Shown: positions 42,099 through 48,883 of the stretch, in pieces | How positions within the stretch are numbered: position 1 is the stretch's first letter | Layout: the number at the start of each line of letters is the position of its first letter | Origin: a virus | Taxonomy: Duplodnaviria; Caudoviricetes | Strand: one strand, 5' to 3' | Virus record (IMG/VR): IMGVR_UViG_3300028048_000057 | Location: 97,443-161,442 of that record | Length of the DNA: 64,000 nt | Made by a program: the position numbers and the translations under genes | The notes under the pieces: generated by a model | What the model saw: the letters and a program-made list of their open reading frames with translations, nothing else | Database searches by the model: none | What the model was told of the DNA's origin: nothing

Positions 42099-42140
42099 TG
42101 CTAAATTTATATACTAGGCTACAAATATTGGTATATAATA
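42099..42140 (+). promoter_or_regulatory. Dual promoter (TGCTAAATTTA plus TATAAT in an inverted repeat) heading the RNA island
   Basis: Same architecture as 47174-47215. Confidence 0.6.
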
Positions 42141-42159
42141 TTATGTAGACCAAGTAAAA

Positions 42160-42236
42160 GGGCTGGCATGTACTAAGGGTAGCGAGCCTCCCTTGCAAGG
42201 AGGCTGTTGTGAGTTCGATTCTCACCTGGTCCACCA
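42160..42236 (+). tRNA. tRNA-Ala(TGC), atypical D-arm
   Basis: G3:U70 pair, A73, CCA; CCTCC-CT TGC AA-GGAGG; GTGAG-TTCGATT-CTCAC. Confidence 0.85.
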
Positions 42237-42240
42237 TTAA

Positions 42241-42560
42241 AGTTAAGAAACACTTAAAGAGTTCAGAGAGTTCTAGATTAATCTCAAGTAAAAATATCTA
42301 GGTGGTCGAGAAGATGACTGTATCACATCTATAAAAAGACAGTGGAGGAGACTAGAGTTAATCTCTAAGCATAAGAAGGAAAACTTGTAAAACCAGTGAC
42401 TAGTTAACACTTATAACTATAGTGGTCCAAAAAGGGGAATCGCCATAAAATACACCTCAATAATTGAAAGGATAAGGTTCAATGGCGGTAGGTGAAGTTT
42501 TGTTTATAACAAGCATATGTATTTGTCCGAGATGACATTAAACTAAATACTTCTTAATTG
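42241..42560 (+). ncRNA. Unassigned ~320-nt structured RNA
   Basis: No ORF of 60 aa or more; termini pair (AGTTAAGAA/TTCTTAATT); several internal hairpins; retains CpG. Confidence 0.55.
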
Positions 42561-42579
42561 AAGAGAATAGGAGATACAT

Positions 42580-42798
42580 ATGTTTGATTACTTAGGATGG
42601 GGCAAACATCTATATTCCTTGGCAGCAACAGGAATTAAATTCAAAGACAAAGAATATACTTCTAGAAAAAGTGCAGAACGTGATATGTATGCATTTATGA
42701 ATAAGCATGGCTTAAGAATTGAAAAAGTATATGATGACAATCATTTTAAAACCTATATTTGCCAAAATGATATTAGATTTTACATTAATAGAATGTAA
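42580..42798 (+). CDS. Small hypothetical protein within the RNA island
   Basis: AGGAGA RBS; 72 aa. Confidence 0.6.
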   Translation: MFDYLGWGKHLYSLAATGIKFKDKEYTSRKSAERDMYAFMNKHGLRIEKVYDDNHFKTYICQNDIRFYINRM

Positions 42799-42842
42799 TC
42801 CCTAGAGGTACCAACTACCTTGAATTAAAACAGTTGGAAAAT

Positions 42843-42916
42843 GCAAATGTTGCATAATGGTAGTGCCCTTGCCTTCCAAGCAAGAGGTGAGAGTTCAATT
42901 CTCTTCATTTGCTCCA
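42843..42916 (+). tRNA. tRNA-Gly(TCC)
   Basis: GCAAATG/CATTTGC-T-CCA; CTTGC-CT TCC AA-GCAAG. Confidence 0.92.
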
Positions 42917-42917
42917 G

Positions 42918-43170
42918 TGCTGTTTCTATGGGTCTTCAGACACTAATAAATCAAAATGACCCACCCATAGGTAATTGGGAAGATTTACCTCCAGAAATTT
43001 GGTCGGCTAGTTGGCACGAACTTGAAAGACACTAAGTGTTGCAACAGACCCACAAGAACTGCAGTGAGTGGGCAAGCACGAGTGATGGACAGAGAATGGG
43101 ATGTTTTGAAAAAGAAACTACGATTGAGTCACCACACTGAGAGCACAAGGTTCACTGGGCAAAGAACAAA
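42918..43170 (+). ncRNA. Unassigned structured RNA between two tRNA-Gly genes
   Basis: Long closing helix 42918-42935/43045-43063; H-type pseudoknot; GC and CpG elevated. Confidence 0.55.
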
Positions 43171-43174
43171 ACAC

Positions 43175-43248
43175 GCAGGTGTAGGACAATGGTAGTCCAT
43201 TTGCTTGCCATGCAAAATATATGGGTCCGATTCCCATCACCTGCTCCA
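43175..43248 (+). tRNA. tRNA-Gly(GCC)
   Basis: GCAGGTG/CACCTGC-T-CCA; TTTGC-TT GCC AT-GCAAA. Confidence 0.9.
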
Positions 43249-43249
43249 T

Positions 43250-43335
43250 CCTCAAAGTGCTGGAAGTTGTGGCACATCTATTCAATTAAGGCTATAGACT
43301 TAGAATAGAAGGGGAGGGGTAAGGTCCCTCTGAGG
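43250..43335 (+). ncRNA. Cloverleaf-like four-way-junction RNA without canonical tRNA loops
   Basis: CCTCA/TGAGG closing GTGCT/GGCAC, TCTATTC/GAATAGA and GAGGGG/TCCCTC arms. Confidence 0.45.
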
Positions 43336-43343
43336 TCTAATAT

Positions 43344-43418
43344 TGCGGGGAAGTGTAACGGTTGCATACTAGGCTCATAACCTAGTGGTAGTAGGTTCAA
43401 TTCCCACCCCCGTAACCA
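43344..43418 (+). tRNA. tRNA-Met(CAT), initiator-like
   Basis: TGCGGGG/CCCCGTA-A-CCA resembles fMet acceptor; CTAGG-CT CAT AA-CCTAG. Confidence 0.85.
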
Positions 43419-43600
43419 TCACACATAAAAAGTGTGCTAAATTATAGTGAGGAAAAGTAACAATGAGAACTATTTTGACCATCAAGAGTATTGAATTAGT
43501 CACATTAGAAAAACATATTTGTGAAGATAATGTGATTTTTGTGCATGGTCAAGATACTTCTTATGAATAACATTAAATAATTATAAAGATGTTAAATTTG

Positions 43601-43628
43601 AGTGCTTGGCTATGCTAGGCACTTTTTT
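43601..43628 (+). terminator. Intrinsic terminator
   Basis: AGTGCTTGGC-tat-GCTAGGCACT followed by T tract. Confidence 0.75.
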
Positions 43629-43637
43629 CTTCTAAAT

Positions 43638-43716
43638 GCTCCCTTAGACGAAATGGTTTACAGTCACAACCCTTTCAAGGTTGTATTTGTGGGTTCGAGT
43701 CCCATAGGGAGTACCA
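43638..43716 (+). tRNA. tRNA-Glu(TTC)
   Basis: GCTCCCT/AGGGAGT-A-CCA; CAACC-CT TTC AA-GGTTG. Confidence 0.92.
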
Positions 43717-43760
43717 AGAGTATTGCCTTAACACATGCTAAATTAAATGAGGAACAATTT

Positions 43761-44429
43761 ATGTACAAATTAAATTTAGACAACAATTATTTAAAACCTA
43801 ATTATGAATCTTGTCCTTATTGTAATAAAATGTGTAAAAACAAAAATAGTTTTAAACAGCATGTGAGATTATGTAAAGAAAATCCAAATAGACAAGAATC
43901 TAATTTAAAAAATCAAGGTTGGTCTAAAGGACTAACTAAAGACACAGACATTAGAGTGTATAATCACTCTAAATATGAAAAGACTTTCTTTGAAAAGCAT
44001 AGTGGATACTTTAAAGGAAAGAAGCACACACAAGAAAGTAAAGATAAAATATCTAAGGGGAGGAAAAAATATTTACAAGAAAATCCACAAAAAGTTCCAT
44101 ACATTCTAAACCATTCATCCAAAAGTAGTTATCCAGAACAATACTTTAAAGAATTATTTGATTTAGAACAAATACCTTTACAGTATCATTTACAAATTTC
44201 TAAATATGAATTAGATTTCTACAATCTAGAAAATAAAATAGATTTAGAGATTGATGGGGAACAACATTATTTAGATTCTAAAATAGCAAAAAGTGATTTA
44301 GAAAGAACAAAATATCTTGAATCTCTTGGATGGACTGTGATTAGAATTAGATGGTCTAATTATCAAAAATTAACTTTAGAAGAGAAAAAGAAGTTAATTA
44401 ATGATATTAAAGAATTAATGCACCCATAA
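43761..44429 (+). mobile_element. Free-standing homing endonuclease (C2HC zinc finger + NUMOD3 + DUF559/Vsr-like nuclease)
   Basis: CPYC..H..C, GWSKG, FKGKKHTQESK.KIS, S.PE, LDFY..EIDGEQH..D..R..L...GW.VIRIRW; start reassigned to ATG 43761 after GAGG. Confidence 0.8.
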
Positions 44430-44495
44430 CTCAGTTGGTAGAGTAATAGACTTTTAATCTATGAGTCGGTGGTTCGAGCCCACCTGGGTGTACCA
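44420..44495 (+). tRNA. tRNA-Lys(TTT)
   Basis: GCACCCA/TGGGTGT-A-CCA; ATAGA-CT TTT AA-TCTAT. Confidence 0.93.
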
Positions 44496-44572
44496 TCCTC
44501 CATAGCAAAATTGGATAATGCACCTGACTCTTAATCAGGGGATTCTAGATTCAAGTTCTAGTGGAGGAACCA
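44496..44572 (+). tRNA. tRNA-Lys(CTT)
   Basis: TCCTCCA/TGGAGGA-A-CCA; CCTGA-CT CTT AA-TCAGG. Confidence 0.88.
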
Positions 44573-44576
44573 ATAA

Positions 44577-44652
44577 GGTCTCTTAGTTTATTTGGTAAAA
44601 CATTCCCCTGATAAGGGAAAGAGGGTTGGTTCAAAACCAGCAGAGACCACCA
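44577..44652 (+). tRNA. tRNA-Ile(GAT)
   Basis: GGTCTCT/AGAGACC-A-CCA; TTCCC-CT GAT AA-GGGAA. Confidence 0.92.
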
Positions 44653-44685
44653 AACACCTAAATAAGGTGTATAATAACATAGATT

Positions 44686-44762
44686 GCCCTTGTAGCATCA
44701 ATTGGTAGATGTCCTCACTTGTAATGAGGCTGTTGGGAGTTCAAGTCTCTCCAAGGGCACCA
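44686..44762 (+). tRNA. tRNA-Thr(TGT)
   Basis: GCCCTTG/CAAGGGC-A-CCA; CCTCA-CT TGT AA-TGAGG. Confidence 0.92.
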
Positions 44763-44764
44763 TC

Positions 44765-44830
44765 CATCTCTATGATTGGGTTCAACTCCCTTTGGCCGAG
44801 GAAGGCTTGGCAAGTGGTGTAGTAGAGATG
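44765..44830 (+). ncRNA. Permuted tRNA-like small RNA (T-loop before a D-loop-like segment)
   Basis: CATCTCTAT/GTAGAGATG closing GGG-TTCAACT-CCC, GCCGAG/CTTGGC and AGTGGTGTA. Confidence 0.5.
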
Positions 44831-44836
44831 CCTTAT

Positions 44837-44921
44837 GCTCAAGTGTTGGAACTGGTATACATCACTGACTTAAAATCAGTGGCCGAGAGGATTAAGGGTT
44901 CAAATCCCTTCTTGAGCACCA
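44837..44921 (+). tRNA. tRNA-Leu(TAA)
   Basis: GCTCAAG/CTTGAGC-A-CCA; ACTGA-CT TAA AA-TCAGT; variable arm. Confidence 0.92.
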
Positions 44922-44924
44922 TAT

Positions 44925-44998
44925 GGGTCCTTGGCATATCGGTAGTGCAGTTGGCTGTTAACCAACCTAGGTAGGTTCAACTCCTTCAGGTCCCGCCA
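44925..44998 (+). tRNA. tRNA-Asn(GTT)
   Basis: GGGTCCT/AGGTCCC-G-CCA; GTTGG-CT GTT AA-CCAAC. Confidence 0.9.
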
Positions 44999-45020
44999 TT
45001 AACCAATCAACAATTAATTT

Positions 45021-45097
45021 GGGCCATTGGTGCAGAGGTCAAACATGTCTCCTTGTCACGGAGAAGAACAGGGGTTCGAATCCCCTATGGCCCGCCA
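45021..45097 (+). tRNA. tRNA-Asp(GTC)
   Basis: GGGCCAT/ATGGCCC-G-CCA; TCTCC-TT GTC AC-GGAGA. Confidence 0.92.
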
Positions 45098-45098
45098 A

Positions 45099-45173
45099 GT
45101 ATAGTTGGCTGATTGGCTTAGGCAGTGGTCTGCAACACCATTTAGTAGGGTTCGATTCCCTAACTATACTCCA
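45099..45173 (+). tRNA. tRNA-Cys(GCA)
   Basis: GTATAGT/ACTATAC-T-CCA (U73); GTGGT-CT GCA AC-ACCAT. Confidence 0.9.
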
Positions 45174-45176
45174 TTT

Positions 45177-45252
45177 ACACCTTTAACTCAGTTGGGAGAG
45201 TGCCACCCCTACAAGATGGAAGTCATAGGTTCAAGTCCTATAAGGTGTACCA
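45177..45252 (+). tRNA. tRNA-Val(TAC) with C33 and an anticodon-stem mismatch
   Basis: ACACCTT/AAGGTGT-A-CCA; CCACC-CC TAC AA-GATGG. Confidence 0.8.
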
Positions 45253-45253
45253 T

Positions 45254-45327
45254 GTGACATTAGCACAAAATTAGTGCACTTGACTGTGAATCAAGGGAAG
45301 AGGGAGAGTTACCCTCATGTCACCCCA
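45254..45327 (+). tRNA. tRNA-His(GTG), atypical T- and D-loops, no encoded G-1
   Basis: GTGACAT/ATGTCAC-C-CCA; CTTGA-CT GTG AA-TCAAG; T-loop AGAGTTA. Confidence 0.85.
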
Positions 45328-45337
45328 TATATTTATT

Positions 45338-45428
45338 GGAGGATTACTCAAGTGGTTGAAGAGGGTGGTTTGCTAAACCACTAGTGGAAGAAATTCTAGC
45401 ATAGGTTCAAATCCTATATCCTCCGCCA
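45338..45428 (+). tRNA. tRNA-Ser(GCT)
   Basis: GGAGGAT/ATCCTCC-G-CCA; GTGGT-TT GCT AA-ACCAC; long variable arm. Confidence 0.93.
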
Positions 45429-45459
45429 TAAAATATTTATTGACAAGTATTTATTATTC

Positions 45460-45684
45460 ATGTATATTATTGGTATGGATATAATTATTTTTCATGAAAT
45501 TAGTATTGTGTTATTATGCTTGATTTATATTCCTAGCATGATTCCTTTCGTTCAATATATCTTATTAAAGAATAGAAAAGAATGTAATAGAAACAAATCT
45601 AAAGAAAAACTATGTTTGACTCTTTGGTTATCATCTATTATAATATTTATTGCAAATGTATTATTATTAATTGCTATTGATTAG
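45460..45684 (+). CDS. Small two-TM membrane protein
   Basis: Two hydrophobic stretches; TTGACA promoter at 45440. Confidence 0.5.
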   Translation: MYIIGMDIIIFHEISIVLLCLIYIPSMIPFVQYILLKNRKECNRNKSKEKLCLTLWLSSIIIFIANVLLLIAID

Positions 45685-45700
45685 GAGATAATTATAAAAT

Positions 45701-46474
45701 ATGATTAAACATTTATATGATGAAATTGCAAAAAGATGGTTAACAAATTGTGATTCTATTTATATCTATAGTGACACACATTTTTCTGATGTTGAATTAT
45801 ATGATATGAGAGGCCTTTTAAATATACCAGATGATATAGTATTTGCTAAAGAACAAGGTGATTCTAGAAGTTATGACTTATATGTTGAAGAAAGAGTTGA
45901 AGTTTTAGATGAGATGCAGATTAAAAACATTAATTCCAAAGCAGGTAAAAACTCTTGTCTCATCATCTTAGGTGATGTTGGTAATATAGAATGTGTTAAG
46001 AAATTAAAAGCAAAATATAAAATTCTTATTATGGGAAATCATGATAAAGGTGCTTCTAATTATTTAATGAGATGGGATGCTAAATGGTGGCCAGATTACG
46101 ATATGGAGGAACTTAAGAAAGATGGGCACACTGAAGTATTAGATTATCCTCCTGGTGCTATTTTATATGGAAAAAGAATTAACGAAGGATTATTTGATGA
46201 AGTCTACGAAGGCCCTTTAATGATTAATGATAGAGTTATTTTATCTCATGAACCTATTAATGTTCCTAATTATATGTTTAATATTCATGGTCATGTTCAT
46301 AAAGCAGATTATAAAGGTGATTCACATCATTTAAATTGCTGTGCAGAAGCCATTAACTACACCCCTATTAATCTTATTAATTTATTGCAAAAAGGGTTAT
46401 TAAAAGATATTGATTCTATTCATAGAATGACTATTGATTTAGCAACAACTAAGAAAAAGAAAAGAACAAAATAA
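45701..46474 (+). CDS. Calcineurin-like metallophosphoesterase
   Basis: SDTHF, LGDVG, GNHD, SHEP, HGHVH. Confidence 0.85.
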   Translation: MIKHLYDEIAKRWLTNCDSIYIYSDTHFSDVELYDMRGLLNIPDDIVFAKEQGDSRSYDLYVEERVEVLDEMQIKNINSKAGKNSCLIILGDVGNIECVKKLKAKYKILIMGNHDKGASNYLMRWDAKWWPDYDMEELKKDGHTEVLDYPPGAILYGKRINEGLFDEVYEGPLMINDRVILSHEPINVPNYMFNIHGHVHKADYKGDSHHLNCCAEAINYTPINLINLLQKGLLKDIDSIHRMTIDLATTKKKKRTK

Positions 46475-46503
46475 GTGTATAATAAATAAAGAGGATTATT
46501 ATT

Positions 46504-46704
46504 ATGATTAATGTTGAATCAAAAATTAGATGTTATGAAGTTAATGATGAAGAAATTCAGGGGTTAGATTATCCAACAATTAAAATCACTAATCATTGGA
46601 ATGAGCATGAATTTGTAGTTCTAGTAATTAATGGAAATACATACACTGTTTCTGCTAAAGATTTAAAAGCAGCAATTGAAAATGCAACTAATGTAGCAAG
46701 ATAA
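46504..46704 (+). CDS. Small hypothetical protein
   Basis: GTGTATAAT motif and GAGG RBS. Confidence 0.55.
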   Translation: MINVESKIRCYEVNDEEIQGLDYPTIKITNHWNEHEFVVLVINGNTYTVSAKDLKAAIENATNVAR

Positions 46705-46775
46705 AAAAAATAATTGACAAATAAAAATTACAAAATTAAAATAGTAAATGTAGAATAGGAGGATACAATTAAATT

Positions 46776-47042
46776 ATGAATCTACAAGAATTATTTTCAA
46801 AAATGGCTAAGCCTAGCAAACCTTATGTATTAGGAAGTGGAAAACCTAATAAGTACAACAAAACCTCTTTAGATGGACATAGAGTCCTTAAAAATGGTTC
46901 TATTGTTGTGAGAACAATTAATGTTGCTAAACCTGATGTTAAAAATCCAGGTAAAAAAGTTCCAACTCCAGTTGATGCTTCTTATGATGCTTCATTAATT
47001 AAAAGTTACAAAAAAGCATTATCTTCAAAGGTAAAGGCTTAA
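46776..47042 (+). CDS. Small basic protein
   Basis: AGGAGG RBS; TTGACA at 46714; Lys/Pro-rich. Confidence 0.6.
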   Translation: MNLQELFSKMAKPSKPYVLGSGKPNKYNKTSLDGHRVLKNGSIVVRTINVAKPDVKNPGKKVPTPVDASYDASLIKSYKKALSSKVKA

Positions 47043-47050
47043 TTAAAATT

Positions 47051-47179
47051 ATGACAAGAAAAGAATATGTTGAAAAAAGGTTACTAGAATTATCTTATAA
47101 AGAAGATAAGGATAGTGTAGACCTTAAAGAAGAAAAAAGACTTGAAGAAGAATTAAAAACTCTTTTAAGTGATTGCTAA
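47051..47179 (+). CDS. 42-aa charged protein (not in ORF track)
   Basis: MTRKEYVEKRLL..SDC; phage-like codon usage. Confidence 0.45.
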   Translation: MTRKEYVEKRLLELSYKEDKDSVDLKEEKRLEEELKTLLSDC

Positions 47180-47215
47180 ATTTATTACACTAGGAAGAAT
47201 ATCTAGTGTATAATA
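47174..47215 (+). promoter_or_regulatory. Dual promoter (TGCTAAATTTA + GTGTATAAT) for the giant ncRNA
   Basis: Both recurrent motifs present; TACACTAG/CTAGTGTA inverted repeat. Confidence 0.65.
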
Positions 47216-47216
47216 G

Positions 47217-48455
47217 ATTGAACCATCATTAGAGATGTTGACCTTAGGTAACTGATTCTAGTGGTAAGTTCAATTAAAATAAGGGCGTAATTCCACCGAT
47301 AACGGAATCATAATACAATAAGTTTAGGGGAAGATACCATTGAGAAATTACCGACCAGACATAAGGTCAATGGATGAAAATCACTAAACGAAATGGGATG
47401 TGGGTCGGTTGCCACCCTAAACTCCAGCCAAGTGGAGAAAGTAGAATAGGCTACGAACAAATCTTGGATACCTCATCTATAGTGCCTAATTGTGTAAGAC
47501 TAAACTATCGGGCCCACTAAAATTCTTTGAGAGCATAATGACTCAAGGACCCGAGCATGCGATAGATTAAAAGGTAGGATAATATAGGACCTTCCTTAAT
47601 TAATTTATTTTCTTAAGCATTACCTCCAAGTAATTACTTAATGATATCTTAAGTGAGGGAACTAATTATCATGCGTGGTAATTAAGTTTAAAAGATTACT
47701 TTAAATTGGTAGATACATCTTAATTGATGTGTGCTATATAGGTATCATTAACCTTGATAATTATTGGATAGATGAAATACTCAATTCTAATAAATATCTA
47801 AAGAGGTGGTTCTCTAATAAAATTGAGAATTTCTCCATGGCGATAGGATATTCATGGTGAGCCTTAATAGTTTATGAATAGGCAATAGCACAAAATAGTA
47901 AGAGAATCTATTAAATATGTGCATGGTCTAGTGTAGCCGAAAATACACTAATAGTTCCACCACCCAGTACTGAATGTTGTTTGATGGTATTGAAGACTAA
48001 CTTGCGTAGAAAGCCTTCTCATCAAGTAAGTGGACTACCTCAGCCTATCATCTTTTAAGAAATAATTACGTCGCCGTCTTAGGACATTGCGTGGTGAAAG
48101 CCCATACCAGCATCCTGATTGGGAGCCTTAAAAGTTTGGCTTATAACCATTAGTGATAGGTAATTAACCACATGCTATTTGCAAATACACCTATGGGAAC
48201 ATAGGTTATGTGGTAAAAAGAGACTAAAGCAGGGGAACTCCAGATAGTTGGTCTGCAAAAGAGGGTTGTGCCTCTTATAGGTCCAGAGGATGACGGACTG
48301 TGGTTCTAATCCCAGACAAATGGTTCTTGGACCATAACTAACCAAGTGTTCAAGTAATATGTAAACCGCCAGTAATGGTTGAGGTAGCAGGGCCTCAGTT
48401 AAAAGGAGTCTAAATATGAAAGAAGAGGAAGGAAAACCTCGTAAACCACTTTTTT
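47217..48455 (+). ncRNA. Giant (~1.24 kb) multi-domain structured ncRNA, GOLLD/ROOL-like context
   Basis: No ORF of 60 aa or more in any frame; about 30 helices by eye including long-range pairs and pseudoknots; GC and CpG elevated; promoter at 5' end, T tract at 3' end. Confidence 0.8.
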
Positions 48456-48499
48456 AAAAAATTAGACATCAATTAATAAAAGTTGGTGTATAATATAAT

Positions 48500-48620
48500 G
48501 AGTAAGAGTTTAGTGGGTGAACCTAAACTAACTACCAAAAAAACAAAAAGATGATTTTCATTCATGTTTTATTGCCTCCTTTCTATAGTTCACCAAAGTG
48601 GCTTGAGTGCCACTTTTTTT
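48500..48620 (+). ncRNA. Small RNA exposing anti-SD/anti-start sequence
   Basis: GTGTATAAT at 48486; GGTGAAC/GTTCACC stem enclosing CATGTTTTATTGCCTCCTTTCT; terminator AAGTGGC/GCCACTT plus T tract. Confidence 0.6.
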
Positions 48621-48659
48621 ATTCTTAACTAAAATTTTAAAATAACAATGCTAAAATTA

Positions 48660-48758
48660 ATGTGGTATTTAATTATCACTTTATTTAGGCTATGACTATG
48701 AGAATACTTATCCTTTCAATCTCATGGTTTAGTAAGGACTCCTGAGGGGGTCTTTTTT
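48660..48758 (+). ncRNA. Second small RNA with a CU-rich (anti-SD-like) loop
   Basis: TGCTAAAATTA at 48649; GACTATGAGA/TCTCATGGTT stem with loop containing CTTATCCTTTC; terminator AGGACTCC/GGGGTCTT plus T tract. Confidence 0.5.
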
Positions 48759-48810
48759 ATTTTTTACACTTTAATTTAAGGCATTATTTTATTTTTTACA
48801 CTTTAATTTA
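48755..48810. repeat. 24-bp direct repeat x2 (TTTTATTTTTTACACTTTAATTTA), period 32
   Basis: Copies at 48755-48778 and 48787-48810. Confidence 0.8.
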
Positions 48811-48820
48811 TTTTTTTTTA

Positions 48821-48850
48821 TTGACAAATTTATATAATCAAGTTTATACT
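48821..48850 (+). promoter_or_regulatory. Sigma70/SigA early promoter
   Basis: TTGACA-18-TATACT. Confidence 0.7.
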
Positions 48851-48883
48851 AATGTCAGATGAATCACATTGGAGGTATTTACT

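What the first reader, a model, noticed from the sequence alone, without database searches (positions are those of the whole stretch)
42099..48760. RNA island: tRNAs interleaved with several unassigned structured RNAs under shared promoter architecture
Seen: 16 tRNAs are interspersed with non-tRNA structured segments (42241-42560, 42918-43170, 43250-43335, 44765-44830, 47217-48455) and followed by two sRNAs (48500-48758). The island's start and the giant RNA share a near-identical promoter cassette: GCTAAATTTAT-ATACTAGG...TTGGTATATAATA (42100) versus GCTAAATTTAT-TACACTAGG...CTAGTGTATAATA (47175), each with the -10 inside an inverted repeat. Inference: tRNA processing (RNase P, 3' trimming) could release the intervening RNAs as discrete species, so tRNAs may serve as punctuation for a co-regulated multi-RNA system.
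Basis: partly seen in the sequence, partly recalled or inferred. Interest (0 to 1): 0.8.

Follow-up and report, generated by a model that had tools for sequence, protein, structure and literature searches.

The report
Phage tRNA island with new RNAs
A large cattle-rumen phage carries a cluster of 16 tRNA genes interleaved with conserved folded RNAs, including a 1.25-kb member of an uncatalogued modular RNA family that sits where ROOL and GOLLD RNAs sit in other phages; its function is unknown.

Summary
The observation largely holds. All 16 tRNAs are real. Three of the five "spacer" segments are conserved structured RNAs: 42917-43174, 43249-43343 and the 1.25-kb stretch at about 47190-48460.

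The 1.25-kb RNA belongs to a family of at least 43 distinct loci. All come from rumen-type metagenome or phage contigs. It has no Rfam 15 match and is not GOLLD, ROOL or a group I intron by covariance models. Its 3' core shows strong covariation: 18 compensated pairs, 94% of cells paired against 49% or less when partners are slid.

The family is modular. Its minimal form is 113 nt. Cores directly abut tRNAs in some phages, and in one phage the 5' module and the 3' core are separated by eight tRNAs and two ORFs.

Rumen metatranscriptome contigs match 42930-43161 and four parts of the large RNA exactly.

The "shared promoter cassette" is real, but its TGCTAAATTT half is a genome-wide phage promoter motif (23 copies on the + strand, 1 on the - strand).

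The island is not one operon: it contains ORFs, further promoters and a terminator. Segments 42237-42579 and 44763-44836 and the two tail sRNAs remain unverified.

By-sequence look-ups found no earlier report of these RNAs on other DNA in this scan.

The parts
42099..42139 (+). Promoter cassette 1: TGCTAAATTT (phage-type motif) followed by TATAAT at 42134-42139, which overlaps an ATATAC/GTATAT inverted repeat
   Evidence: Sequence read; genome-wide motif count
42160..42236 (+). tRNA-Ala(UGC), atypical D arm
   Evidence: ARAGORN; Rfam 27.3 bits, below the cut-off of 29
42237..42579 (+). Spacer 1, which is also the leader of ORF 42580-42798. It carries an AAGGAAAA-loop hairpin at 42371-42394 and a module of about 100 nt shared with contig L069
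   Evidence: No exact RNA-library contig seen. Folding z-score +0.4 for 42320-42440
42843..42916 (+). tRNA-Gly(UCC)
42917..43174 (+). Spacer 2: conserved structured RNA of about 258 nt, bracketed by tRNAs
   Evidence: Homologue in L067/L077/L078 (E 3e-26, blocks of 25 and 38 identical nt, one compensated CCCAC/GTGGG to CCCTC/GAGGG change), also flanked by tRNAs. Exact metatranscriptome contigs at 42930-43161 and 42941-43160
43175..43248 (+). tRNA-Gly(GCC)
43249..43343 (+). Spacer 3: cloverleaf-like RNA of about 90 nt (closing stem plus three hairpins), directly upstream of tRNA-Met
   Evidence: Homologues in L027 and in L129/L130. The closing stem and two hairpins covary, and each homologue is followed by a tRNA
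43344..43418 (+). tRNA-Met(CAU)
43600..43624 (+). Terminator-like hairpin inside the island, after small ORF 43463-43570
43638..43716 (+). tRNA-Glu(UUC)
43761..44429 (+). Homing-endonuclease-like ORF (DUF559 nuclease domain, NUMOD3, zinc finger) inserted in the tRNA array
   Evidence: Pfam
44420..45428 (+). Array of 11 tRNAs: Lys, Lys, Ile, Thr, Leu, Asn, Asp, Cys, Val, His, Ser
44763..44836 (+). Spacer 4, between tRNA-Thr and tRNA-Leu; status unverified
   Evidence: No homologue in 469 kb of related loci; folding z-score -0.9
47174..47214 (+). Promoter cassette 2: TGCTAAATTT followed by TATAAT at 47209-47214, preceded by an ACACTAG/CTAGTGT inverted repeat
   Evidence: Exact RNA-library contigs begin at 47196 and 47203, upstream of the start expected from the TATAAT box
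47190..48460 (+). Large ncRNA region of about 1.25 kb; the ends are approximate
   Evidence: ORF-free and GC-enriched. Family found. Exact RNA-library contigs at 47196-47562, 47756-47960, 48072-48222 and 48242-48408
47304..47425 (+). 5' module 'g5', with a covarying CCATTGA/TCAATGG stem
   Evidence: Homologues in L043, L070, L046, L052 and L022. In L022 it is separated from the core by 8 tRNAs and 2 ORFs
47423..47605 (+). A domain (blocks A1-A4), with a variable insert between A2 and A3
   Evidence: 10-sequence alignment A3: 26 predicted pairs, 7 with compensatory change
47602..47740 (+). Insert module shared with L053 and L051 (90% identity)
47942..48284 (+). Universally conserved 3' core: block B (with the CAGTACTG palindrome), then C, D2, E and the E2 hairpin
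   Evidence: Alignment A2 of 30 distinct sequences; helices 4, 6, 7 and 8 covary
48277..48357 (+). 3' extension modules. GGTCCAGAGGATGACGGAC... is shared with L064, L052, L071 and L040 at other relative positions; 48322-48357 is shared with L048
48424..48447 (+). Hairpin with an AAGGAAAA loop followed by AAACC, then a U-run; probable 3' end region
   Evidence: The motif recurs with covarying stems at 42375 and in 9 other loci
48500..48625 (+). Candidate sRNA 1: TATAAT at 48489-48494, terminator at 48595-48616
   Evidence: folding z-score -3.3; no homologue found
48649..48765 (+). Candidate sRNA 2: TGCTAAAATT at 48649-48658, terminator at 48734-48755
   Evidence: folding z-score -3.8; no homologue found

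Best explanation
Context. The region is the RNA-gene island of a roughly 161-kb cattle-rumen phage. It lies in the replication and recombination module.

Transcription. The RNA blocks are transcribed from the phage's own promoter type (TGCTAAATTT). At the two main RNA units a sigma-70-like TATAAT box is added. The transcripts carry 16 tRNAs interleaved with conserved structured non-coding RNAs.

Processing (inferred). Host tRNA-processing enzymes, RNase P at tRNA 5' ends and RNase Z or exonucleases at 3' ends, release the tRNAs. In doing so they also release the RNAs lying between them. This is clearest for 42917-43174 and for 43249-43343.

The large RNA. The 1.25-kb RNA has its own promoter pair. 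It is a long-form member of an uncatalogued modular family. The family has an invariant 3' core of about 110 nt to 350 nt (blocks B-C-D2-E-E2). The core can stand alone, be flanked by tRNAs, or be fused to a variable 5' domain and to extra modules.

Function (inferred). By its position, abundance and architecture it works like the GOLLD/ROOL kind of phage RNA: an abundant, protein-independent structured RNA acting in the tRNA and translation sphere during infection. It possibly self-associates through its self-complementary CAGUACUG segment.

Shown versus inferred. Shown: conservation, covariation, modularity, tRNA adjacency and presence in RNA libraries. Inferred: the processing route, whether the large RNA is one molecule, self-association and function.
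For: tRNAs and absence of coding.

Family size: colinear conserved blocks in relatives G001 and G003. Block B matched 42 metagenome and 6 true viral loci, giving 43 distinct contexts.

Covariation in the core:
- 94.3% of cells paired, against 33-49% when partners are slid.
- 18 pairs changed on both sides.
- 0 of 500 shuffles reached the observed covariation score.
- The A domain adds 7 compensated pairs.

Modularity:
- Minimal cores of 113 nt in L056 and L073.
- In L022 the core has its own TTGACA-17-TATAAT promoter and its own terminator. It is separated from the 5' module by 8 tRNAs and 2 ORFs.
- Modules sit at different relative positions in different loci.

tRNA adjacency:
- In L027 a tRNA ends 3 nt before block B.
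- In L066 the core (as extracted, 12 nt past its last hairpin) ends where the next tRNA starts.
- All 14 loci with tRNAs in the available flank have them on the same strand.
- Spacer 2 and spacer 3 homologues are bracketed or followed by tRNAs.

RNA libraries: exact contigs over spacer 2 and over four parts of the large RNA. A relative's version of the core reaches word depth 372 in X6 and 92 in X5.

Promoter motif: 23 copies on the + strand against 1 on the - strand, upstream of ribosome-binding sites.

Genomic niche: a relative (L005) has phosphoesterase, then 22 tRNAs, then ROOL. Here the order is tRNAs, phosphoesterase, large RNA.

Literature: GOLLD and ROOL lie near tRNA islands. GOLLD has a conserved 3' region and a variable 5' region, with tRNAs sometimes in the linker (bioRxiv 10.1101/2024.12.08.627333, read).
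Against: - No transcript ends were mapped. Logan contigs cannot show starts, ends, strand or level, and DNA can contaminate RNA libraries (notes).
- The gaps between the exact contigs fall at blocks shared with relatives (my reading). They therefore do not show whether the 1.25 kb is one RNA or several.
- Spacer 1, spacer 4 and the two tail sRNAs have no conservation support beyond one partial match.
- The island is not one operon. It contains a terminator-like site at 43600-43624, several promoters and 1.75 kb of ORFs.
- The short form of the family co-occurs with ROOL in L066. The family is therefore not simply a ROOL substitute.
- The self-complementarity of block B across the family is partly circular, because my metagenome pattern fixed YR at the two varying positions.
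- The long-range B/E helix shows no compensatory change.
Confidence: 0.7

Rival explanations
1. The 1.25-kb stretch is not one giant RNA. It is a tandem set of independent RNA genes or modules (5' g5+A RNA, insert module, core RNA, 3' modules). These are cut apart after transcription, or work in trans as they must in phages where they are separated.
For: - In L022 the core is a stand-alone promoter-to-terminator gene, far from the g5 module.
- Cores of 113-162 nt exist on their own in L056, L073 and L066.
- The 3' module GGTCCAGAGGATGACGGAC... lies upstream of the core, downstream of it, or kilobases away in different loci.
Against: - In the window there is one promoter pair at 47174-47214. 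Inside the stretch the consensus scan gives no terminator-like site and only weak (9 of 12) promoter-like matches before about 48460.
- In compact members (L059, L072) the A domain runs directly into block B, with about 20 nt between them.
- Contigs cannot settle continuity.
Confidence: 0.35
2. The family is a very diverged branch of GOLLD: a true homologue that the Rfam model misses.
For: - The overall architecture matches what is reported for GOLLD: a universal 3' region, a variable 5' region, tRNAs sometimes between them, phage-encoded, near tRNA islands.
- The size range exceeds 800 nt.
Against: - The GOLLD covariance model gives no match at E<=10 in the whole genome.
- All-Rfam scans list no GOLLD match in the island at E<=10, nor in 14 family loci at E<=1.
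- None of 12 block motifs of 9-12 nt occurs in the published GOLLD or ROOL Stockholm alignments (those files are cut at 400k characters, and gaps could split a motif).
Confidence: 0.1
3. The spacer RNAs or the large RNA are group I intron-type ribozymes of the rumen-phage family that Rfam misses. They would be either free-standing or splitting tRNA genes hidden from tRNA finders.
For: Earlier notes of this scan report such introns in tRNA genes of big rumen phages. The genome has no tRNA-Arg among its 25 tRNAs, so a hidden split tRNA was conceivable.
Against: - No Intron_gpI match at E<=10 in the genome or in the island.
- ARAGORN with introns allowed finds no credible split tRNA.
- Spacers 2 and 3 begin right after a complete CCA end and finish at or 8 nt before a complete tRNA.
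- There is no GACTA/TAGTC (R/S-like) pairing in the ncRNA segments (that consensus was recalled from memory, so this point is weak).
- By-sequence look-ups show no shared words with the scan's intron findings.
Confidence: 0.04
4. Spacer 1, spacer 4 and the two tail units are not functional RNAs. They would be a 5' leader of ORF 42580-42798, a processing spacer, and promoter/terminator debris.
For: - No homologues were found, apart from about 100 nt of spacer 1.
- Folding z-scores of +0.4 and -0.9 for spacers 1 and 4.
- No exact RNA-library contig over spacer 1 was listed.
- The perfect 14-nt complementarity between 42463-42476 and 48707-48720 arises in 20% of Markov-shuffled islands.
Against: - Spacer 1 carries the recurrent AAGGAAAA-loop hairpin and a module shared with L069.
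- The tail units have promoter-like and terminator-like elements in the right order, and z-scores of -3.3 and -3.8.
Confidence: 0.4

Closest known systems
GOLLD RNA (Rfam RF02032)
   Same: Phage-encoded and large (over 800 nt in long forms). Lies near tRNA islands. [quoted passage not shown] Function unknown (paper read).
   Different: No covariance-model match and no shared sequence blocks. The core can be as short as 113 nt. So far found only in rumen-type samples. Multimer formation was not tested.
ROOL RNA (Rfam RF03087)
   Same: Rumen origin, phage-encoded, next to tRNA arrays on the same strand. A relative (L005) carries ROOL right after its tRNA array beside the homologous phosphoesterase gene. 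Relative G004 also carries ROOL.
   Different: No model match in this genome. The short form of the new family co-occurs with ROOL in L066, so the two are distinct RNAs and not mere substitutes.
Phage T4 tRNA gene cluster with the stable RNAs RNAC and RNAD
   Same: Small stable RNAs of unknown function encoded by a tRNA-carrying phage. RNAC and RNAD are described as 'of yet unknown functions' in PMC9697503. That they lie in the T4 tRNA cluster and come from tRNA precursors is from my own knowledge.
   Different: No sequence relationship was tested. Here the interleaved RNAs are larger, more numerous and belong to families shared across rumen phages.
Group I introns in phage tRNA genes
   Same: Structured RNAs of 200-800 nt inside phage tRNA clusters that Rfam can miss (scan notes).
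   Different: These RNAs interrupt no tRNA. There is no Intron_gpI match and no split tRNA.

Membership tests
GOLLD (RF02032) | Match to the family covariance model | tested here: not met
   No match at E<=10 in the whole 161-kb genome. All-Rfam scans list no GOLLD match in the island at E<=10, nor in family loci at E<=1.
GOLLD (RF02032) | Conserved 3' region, variable 5' region, tRNAs nearby or in the linker | tested here: met
   Core B-E2 is present in all 30 aligned members. The A and g5 domains are present in a subset, at offsets from -41 to -972 nt. In L022 8 tRNAs lie between them. This is an architectural resemblance only.
GOLLD / ROOL | Homo-oligomeric nanocage | not testable with these tools
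   Only a self-complementary CAGUACUG segment in block B was noted. No RNA complex prediction is available.
ROOL (RF03087) | Match to the family covariance model | tested here: not met
   No match at E<=10 in the genome. The same model finds ROOL in L005, G004 and L066.
Group I intron (RF00028) | Match to the model; interrupts a gene; P7 with R/S elements | tested here: not met
   No match at E<=10. No split tRNA. No GACTA/TAGTC pair in the ncRNA segments (weak test, consensus recalled from memory).
tRNA (RF00005) | Cloverleaf model score above the cut-off | tested here: met
   15 of 16 score above 29 bits. tRNA-Ala scores 27.3 bits but is called by ARAGORN.
New large-RNA family (defined here) | Blocks B, E and the E2 hairpin in order, with covarying helices between them | tested here: met
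   The window carries all blocks with at most 1 mismatch.
tRNA-punctuated stable RNA (T4 RNAC/RNAD type) | Encoded between tRNAs and released by tRNA processing | tested here: inconclusive
   Position between tRNAs is shown and is conserved. Release was not tested, because contigs cannot show ends.

The most novel reading that the evidence does not exclude
The 1.25-kb RNA and its short relatives are a third class of GOLLD/ROOL-like phage RNA. In this reading it is built from shuffling modules that can be encoded together, or apart between tRNAs, and that assemble in cis or in trans. The invariant self-complementary CAGUACUG segment of the core would drive RNA-only oligomers that act on tRNAs or ribosomes during infection.
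Probability: 0.15. Interest if true: 0.85.

Novelty: new variant of a known kind. Interest (0 to 1): 0.62.

Why it matters
GOLLD and ROOL are abundant phage RNAs that sit beside tRNA islands and form RNA-only cages, and nobody knows what they do. This island adds a further uncatalogued family in the same niche.

The new family has three useful properties:
- It has a minimal form of 113 nt, small enough for structural and biochemical work.
- Natural variants exist in which the domains are fused, split by tRNAs, or accompanied by ROOL.
- Rumen metatranscriptome contigs contain it.

The island also gives comparative support for the idea that phage tRNA arrays serve as processing punctuation for other structured RNAs. 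That idea can be tested directly with RNase P and RNase Z assays.

Tried and rejected
Searches with no match:
- Rfam, at the gathering threshold and at E<=10: nothing but tRNAs for any spacer or for the large RNA.
- megablast and blastn against 50,697 phage records: no match.
- blastn and nhmmer of the spacers against the first 11 related loci: nothing. The relatives were found only through whole-record searches.

Coding readings. Alternative genetic codes open no long frame in 47180-48870.

Host search. Block B gave 0 matches in GTDB genomes. Block E gave 49 matches; only two had a core-like block nearby, and those two plus five rumen/gut-MAG hits, read in context, look like chance matches in other sequence. 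The host is therefore unknown.

Other negative or weak results:
- An exact pattern for the spacer 1 module found nothing in viral contigs.
- No partner column covaries with the YR positions of block B.
- The idea that phages carry either ROOL or this RNA was dropped after L066 showed both.
- The 14-nt sRNA/spacer 1 complementarity is not beyond chance at island scale.
- Thermodynamic z-scores for spacers 1, 3 and 4 are unremarkable.
- The read-laying output gave no cover for spacer 1 in the RNA runs and no usable joints. Joints with sides of 21-26 letters were not used.
- No protein-complex or structure jobs were run, because they do not bear on RNA.

Full report
CONTEXT
The window is the last 64 kb of a 161,442-bp IMG/VR virus record estimated at 91% complete. 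The genome is about 28% GC and all long ORFs lie on the + strand. The window encodes a DnaB-like helicase, a DNA polymerase, a UvsX-like recombinase and an SbcC-like subunit (with further exonuclease genes), so the island lies in the replication and recombination module. The only run that holds nearly all of the stretch is a bovine gut metagenome that may be its own source. Other bovine and gut runs hold small shares.

THE OBSERVATION
- ARAGORN finds 16 tRNAs between 42160 and 45428, all on the + strand. Fifteen pass the Rfam cut-off. tRNA-Ala scores 27.3 bits against 29.
- The genome has 25 tRNAs in three clusters and none for arginine.
- The island is not pure RNA. It contains ORFs at 42580-42798, 43463-43570 and 43761-44429. 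The last is a DUF559/NUMOD3/zinc-finger, homing-endonuclease-like gene.
- It also contains five ORFs at 45460-47179, including a calcineurin-like phosphoesterase, and a terminator-like hairpin at 43600-43624.
- 47180-48868 has no ORF of 60 aa or more under tables 11 or 4 or with TAG=Q. Its GC content rises to 37-43%.

THE PROMOTER CASSETTE
Both cassettes exist as described, with identical spacing. However, TGCTAAAWTT occurs 23 times on the + strand and once on the - strand of the genome. Most copies lie 25-50 nt upstream of a ribosome-binding site and start codon. It is therefore the phage's general promoter-type motif and is not specific to the island. Reading it as an extended -10 element is my inference. 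What the two RNA units share beyond the motif is an ACTAGG stretch and a TATAAT box 34 nt downstream that overlaps or abuts a short inverted repeat. A third copy of the motif precedes the second tail unit, at 48649.

THE LARGE RNA IS A MEMBER OF A REAL FAMILY
Searching whole records of protein-level relatives gave colinear conserved blocks in G001 and G003. One block is 34 nt long and 100% identical, although the phosphoesterase gene shared with G001 is only 59% identical at protein level.

The most conserved block, B (GTTCCACCACCYRGTACTGAAT), then matched widely:
- 6 true viral loci.
- 42 metagenome loci.
- No GTDB genome.
- In total, 43 distinct contexts.

The blocks occur in a fixed order: [g5] - A1-A2-A3-A4 - variable insert - B - C - D2 - E - E2.

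Covariation in the core comes from 30 distinct core sequences (alignment A2):
- 94.3% of cells in the consensus structure are paired, against 33-49% when partners are slid.
- 18 pairs have compensatory change.
- None of 500 shuffles reaches the observed covariation score.
- Four helices carry the signal: the hairpin between B and C, the CCUAU/AUAGG helix between C and D2, the E hairpin, and the E2 hairpin with its conserved GUUGWG loop.
- The proposed long-range B/E helix never covaries.
- The A domain adds 7 compensated pairs in 10 sequences.

THE FAMILY IS MODULAR
- Minimal members (L056, L073) are 113 nt: B, a short C, E and E2.
- In compact members the A domain runs straight into B, giving about 430-450 nt, and a terminator follows E2.
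- The window's copy adds a g5 module (47304-47425) with a stem that covaries across five homologues.
- It also adds an insert module shared with L053 and L051, and 3' modules that sit at other relative positions in other loci.
- In L022 the core is a stand-alone gene with a TTGACA-17-TATAAT promoter and its own terminator. It is separated from the g5 module by eight tRNAs and two ORFs.

Whether the window's 1.25 kb is one RNA or several therefore remains open.

tRNA ASSOCIATION
Fourteen of the 43 distinct loci have tRNAs in the available flank, always on the same strand. Most loci without tRNAs are short contigs.
- In L027 a tRNA ends 3 nt before B.
- In L066 the core (as extracted, 12 nt past the E2 hairpin) ends where a tRNA starts, and a ROOL RNA follows 0.9 kb downstream.
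- L043 has a phage tmRNA upstream.

THE SPACERS
- Spacer 2 (42917-43174). It has a homologue in a 146-kb phage and in a 42-kb contig (E 3e-26). The two copies share identical blocks of 25 and 38 nt and show one compensated stem change. The homologue also lies between two tRNAs of different identity, and its conserved 3' block ends exactly at the tRNA start.
- Spacer 3 (43249-43343). It folds as a closing stem plus three hairpins. It is conserved in G003 and in L129/L130. The closing stem and two hairpins covary. A tRNA follows it each time.
- Spacer 1. It shares about 100 nt with L069. It carries a hairpin with an AAGGAAAA loop that recurs, with covarying stems, at the 3' end of the large RNA and in nine other loci.
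- Spacer 4 and the two tail units. No homologue was found for these.

EXPRESSION
Two metatranscriptome runs from one bovine sample hold contigs identical to:
- 42930-43161 and 42941-43160 (spacer 2);
- 47196-47562 and 47203-47479;
- 47756-47960;
- 48072-48222;
- 48242-48408.

A relative's version of the core reaches word depth 372 in X6 and 92 in X5.

Two cautions apply. Contigs cannot show ends, strand or level. The gaps between the exact contigs fall at blocks shared with relatives (my reading), so the breaks may come from assembly and not from RNA ends. Contigs that start at 47196 and 47203 lie upstream of the start site expected from the TATAAT box. This is a weak hint that the TGCTAAATTT element, or read-through, also drives the RNA.

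COMPARISON WITH KNOWN FAMILIES
- No Rfam 15 family matches the large RNA or the spacers at E<=10. Fourteen family loci, scanned at E<=1, gave no match over the family RNA either.
- The GOLLD, ROOL and group I intron models find nothing in the whole genome.
- None of twelve block motifs occurs in the published GOLLD and ROOL alignments.
- ARAGORN with introns allowed finds no split tRNA.
- The architecture nevertheless parallels what is reported for GOLLD: a universal 3' region, a variable 5' region, tRNAs sometimes in the linker, and a position near tRNA islands.
- Relatives carry ROOL in a comparable place.
- T4's RNAC and RNAD are the classical case of phage stable RNAs of unknown function.

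VERDICT
The island is real, and most of its non-tRNA RNA is conserved and structured. The idea that tRNAs act as punctuation has comparative support but no end-mapping support. The shared promoter is a genome-wide motif. The large RNA is a new, modular family of the GOLLD/ROOL kind, and its function is unknown.

By-sequence look-ups in this scan's notes found these RNAs only on this window. The notes do report other, unrelated uncatalogued large RNAs in rumen phages.

Noticed in passing
L066:6544-8215: A 162-nt minimal core of the new family ends where a tRNA starts. A second tRNA and a full ROOL RNA (199 bits) follow, so the two RNA kinds co-occur in one island.
   Followed up: partly
L043:2069-2448 (-): A phage-encoded tmRNA (85 bits, cut by the contig end) lies about 1.1 kb upstream of a full g5-A-core RNA.
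   Followed up: no
window 42371-42394 and 48424-48447; also L039, L041, L053, L055, L059, L069, L074: A recurrent small hairpin: a 3-5 bp covarying stem, an invariant AAGGAAAA loop, then nnAAACC. It is always on the RNA strand. The loop is Shine-Dalgarno-like.
   Followed up: partly
window 43761-44429: A DUF559/NUMOD3/zinc-finger endonuclease gene sits inside the tRNA array. Its stop codon overlaps the first bases of tRNA-Lys.
   Followed up: partly
whole genome G000: There are 25 tRNAs in three clusters but none for arginine. No intron-split tRNA was detected in the island.
   Followed up: partly
L026:6712-6748 and L066:6254-6289: Weak abiF-motif (RF03085) matches upstream of block B: directly upstream in L026 (36.8 bits, cut-off 37) and about 270 nt upstream in L066 (30.1 bits). 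L026 has block B but none of the other blocks.
   Followed up: no
window 47370-47383 vs 48552-48565: The conserved g5 block GGATGAAAATCA is complementary to the loop region of tail sRNA 1 (13 of 14 positions; the one mismatch would be a G.U pair). Its significance was not established.
   Followed up: no
window 48755-48778 and 48787-48810: A perfect 24-nt direct repeat follows the second tail terminator, upstream of a TTGACA-18-TATACT promoter at 48821-48850.
   Followed up: no
L027:225-330 (-) (G003): The tRNA-Met-like gene after the spacer 3 homologue has an enlarged D region. ARAGORN misses it, and Rfam gives only a weak tRNA-Sec-like match.
   Followed up: no
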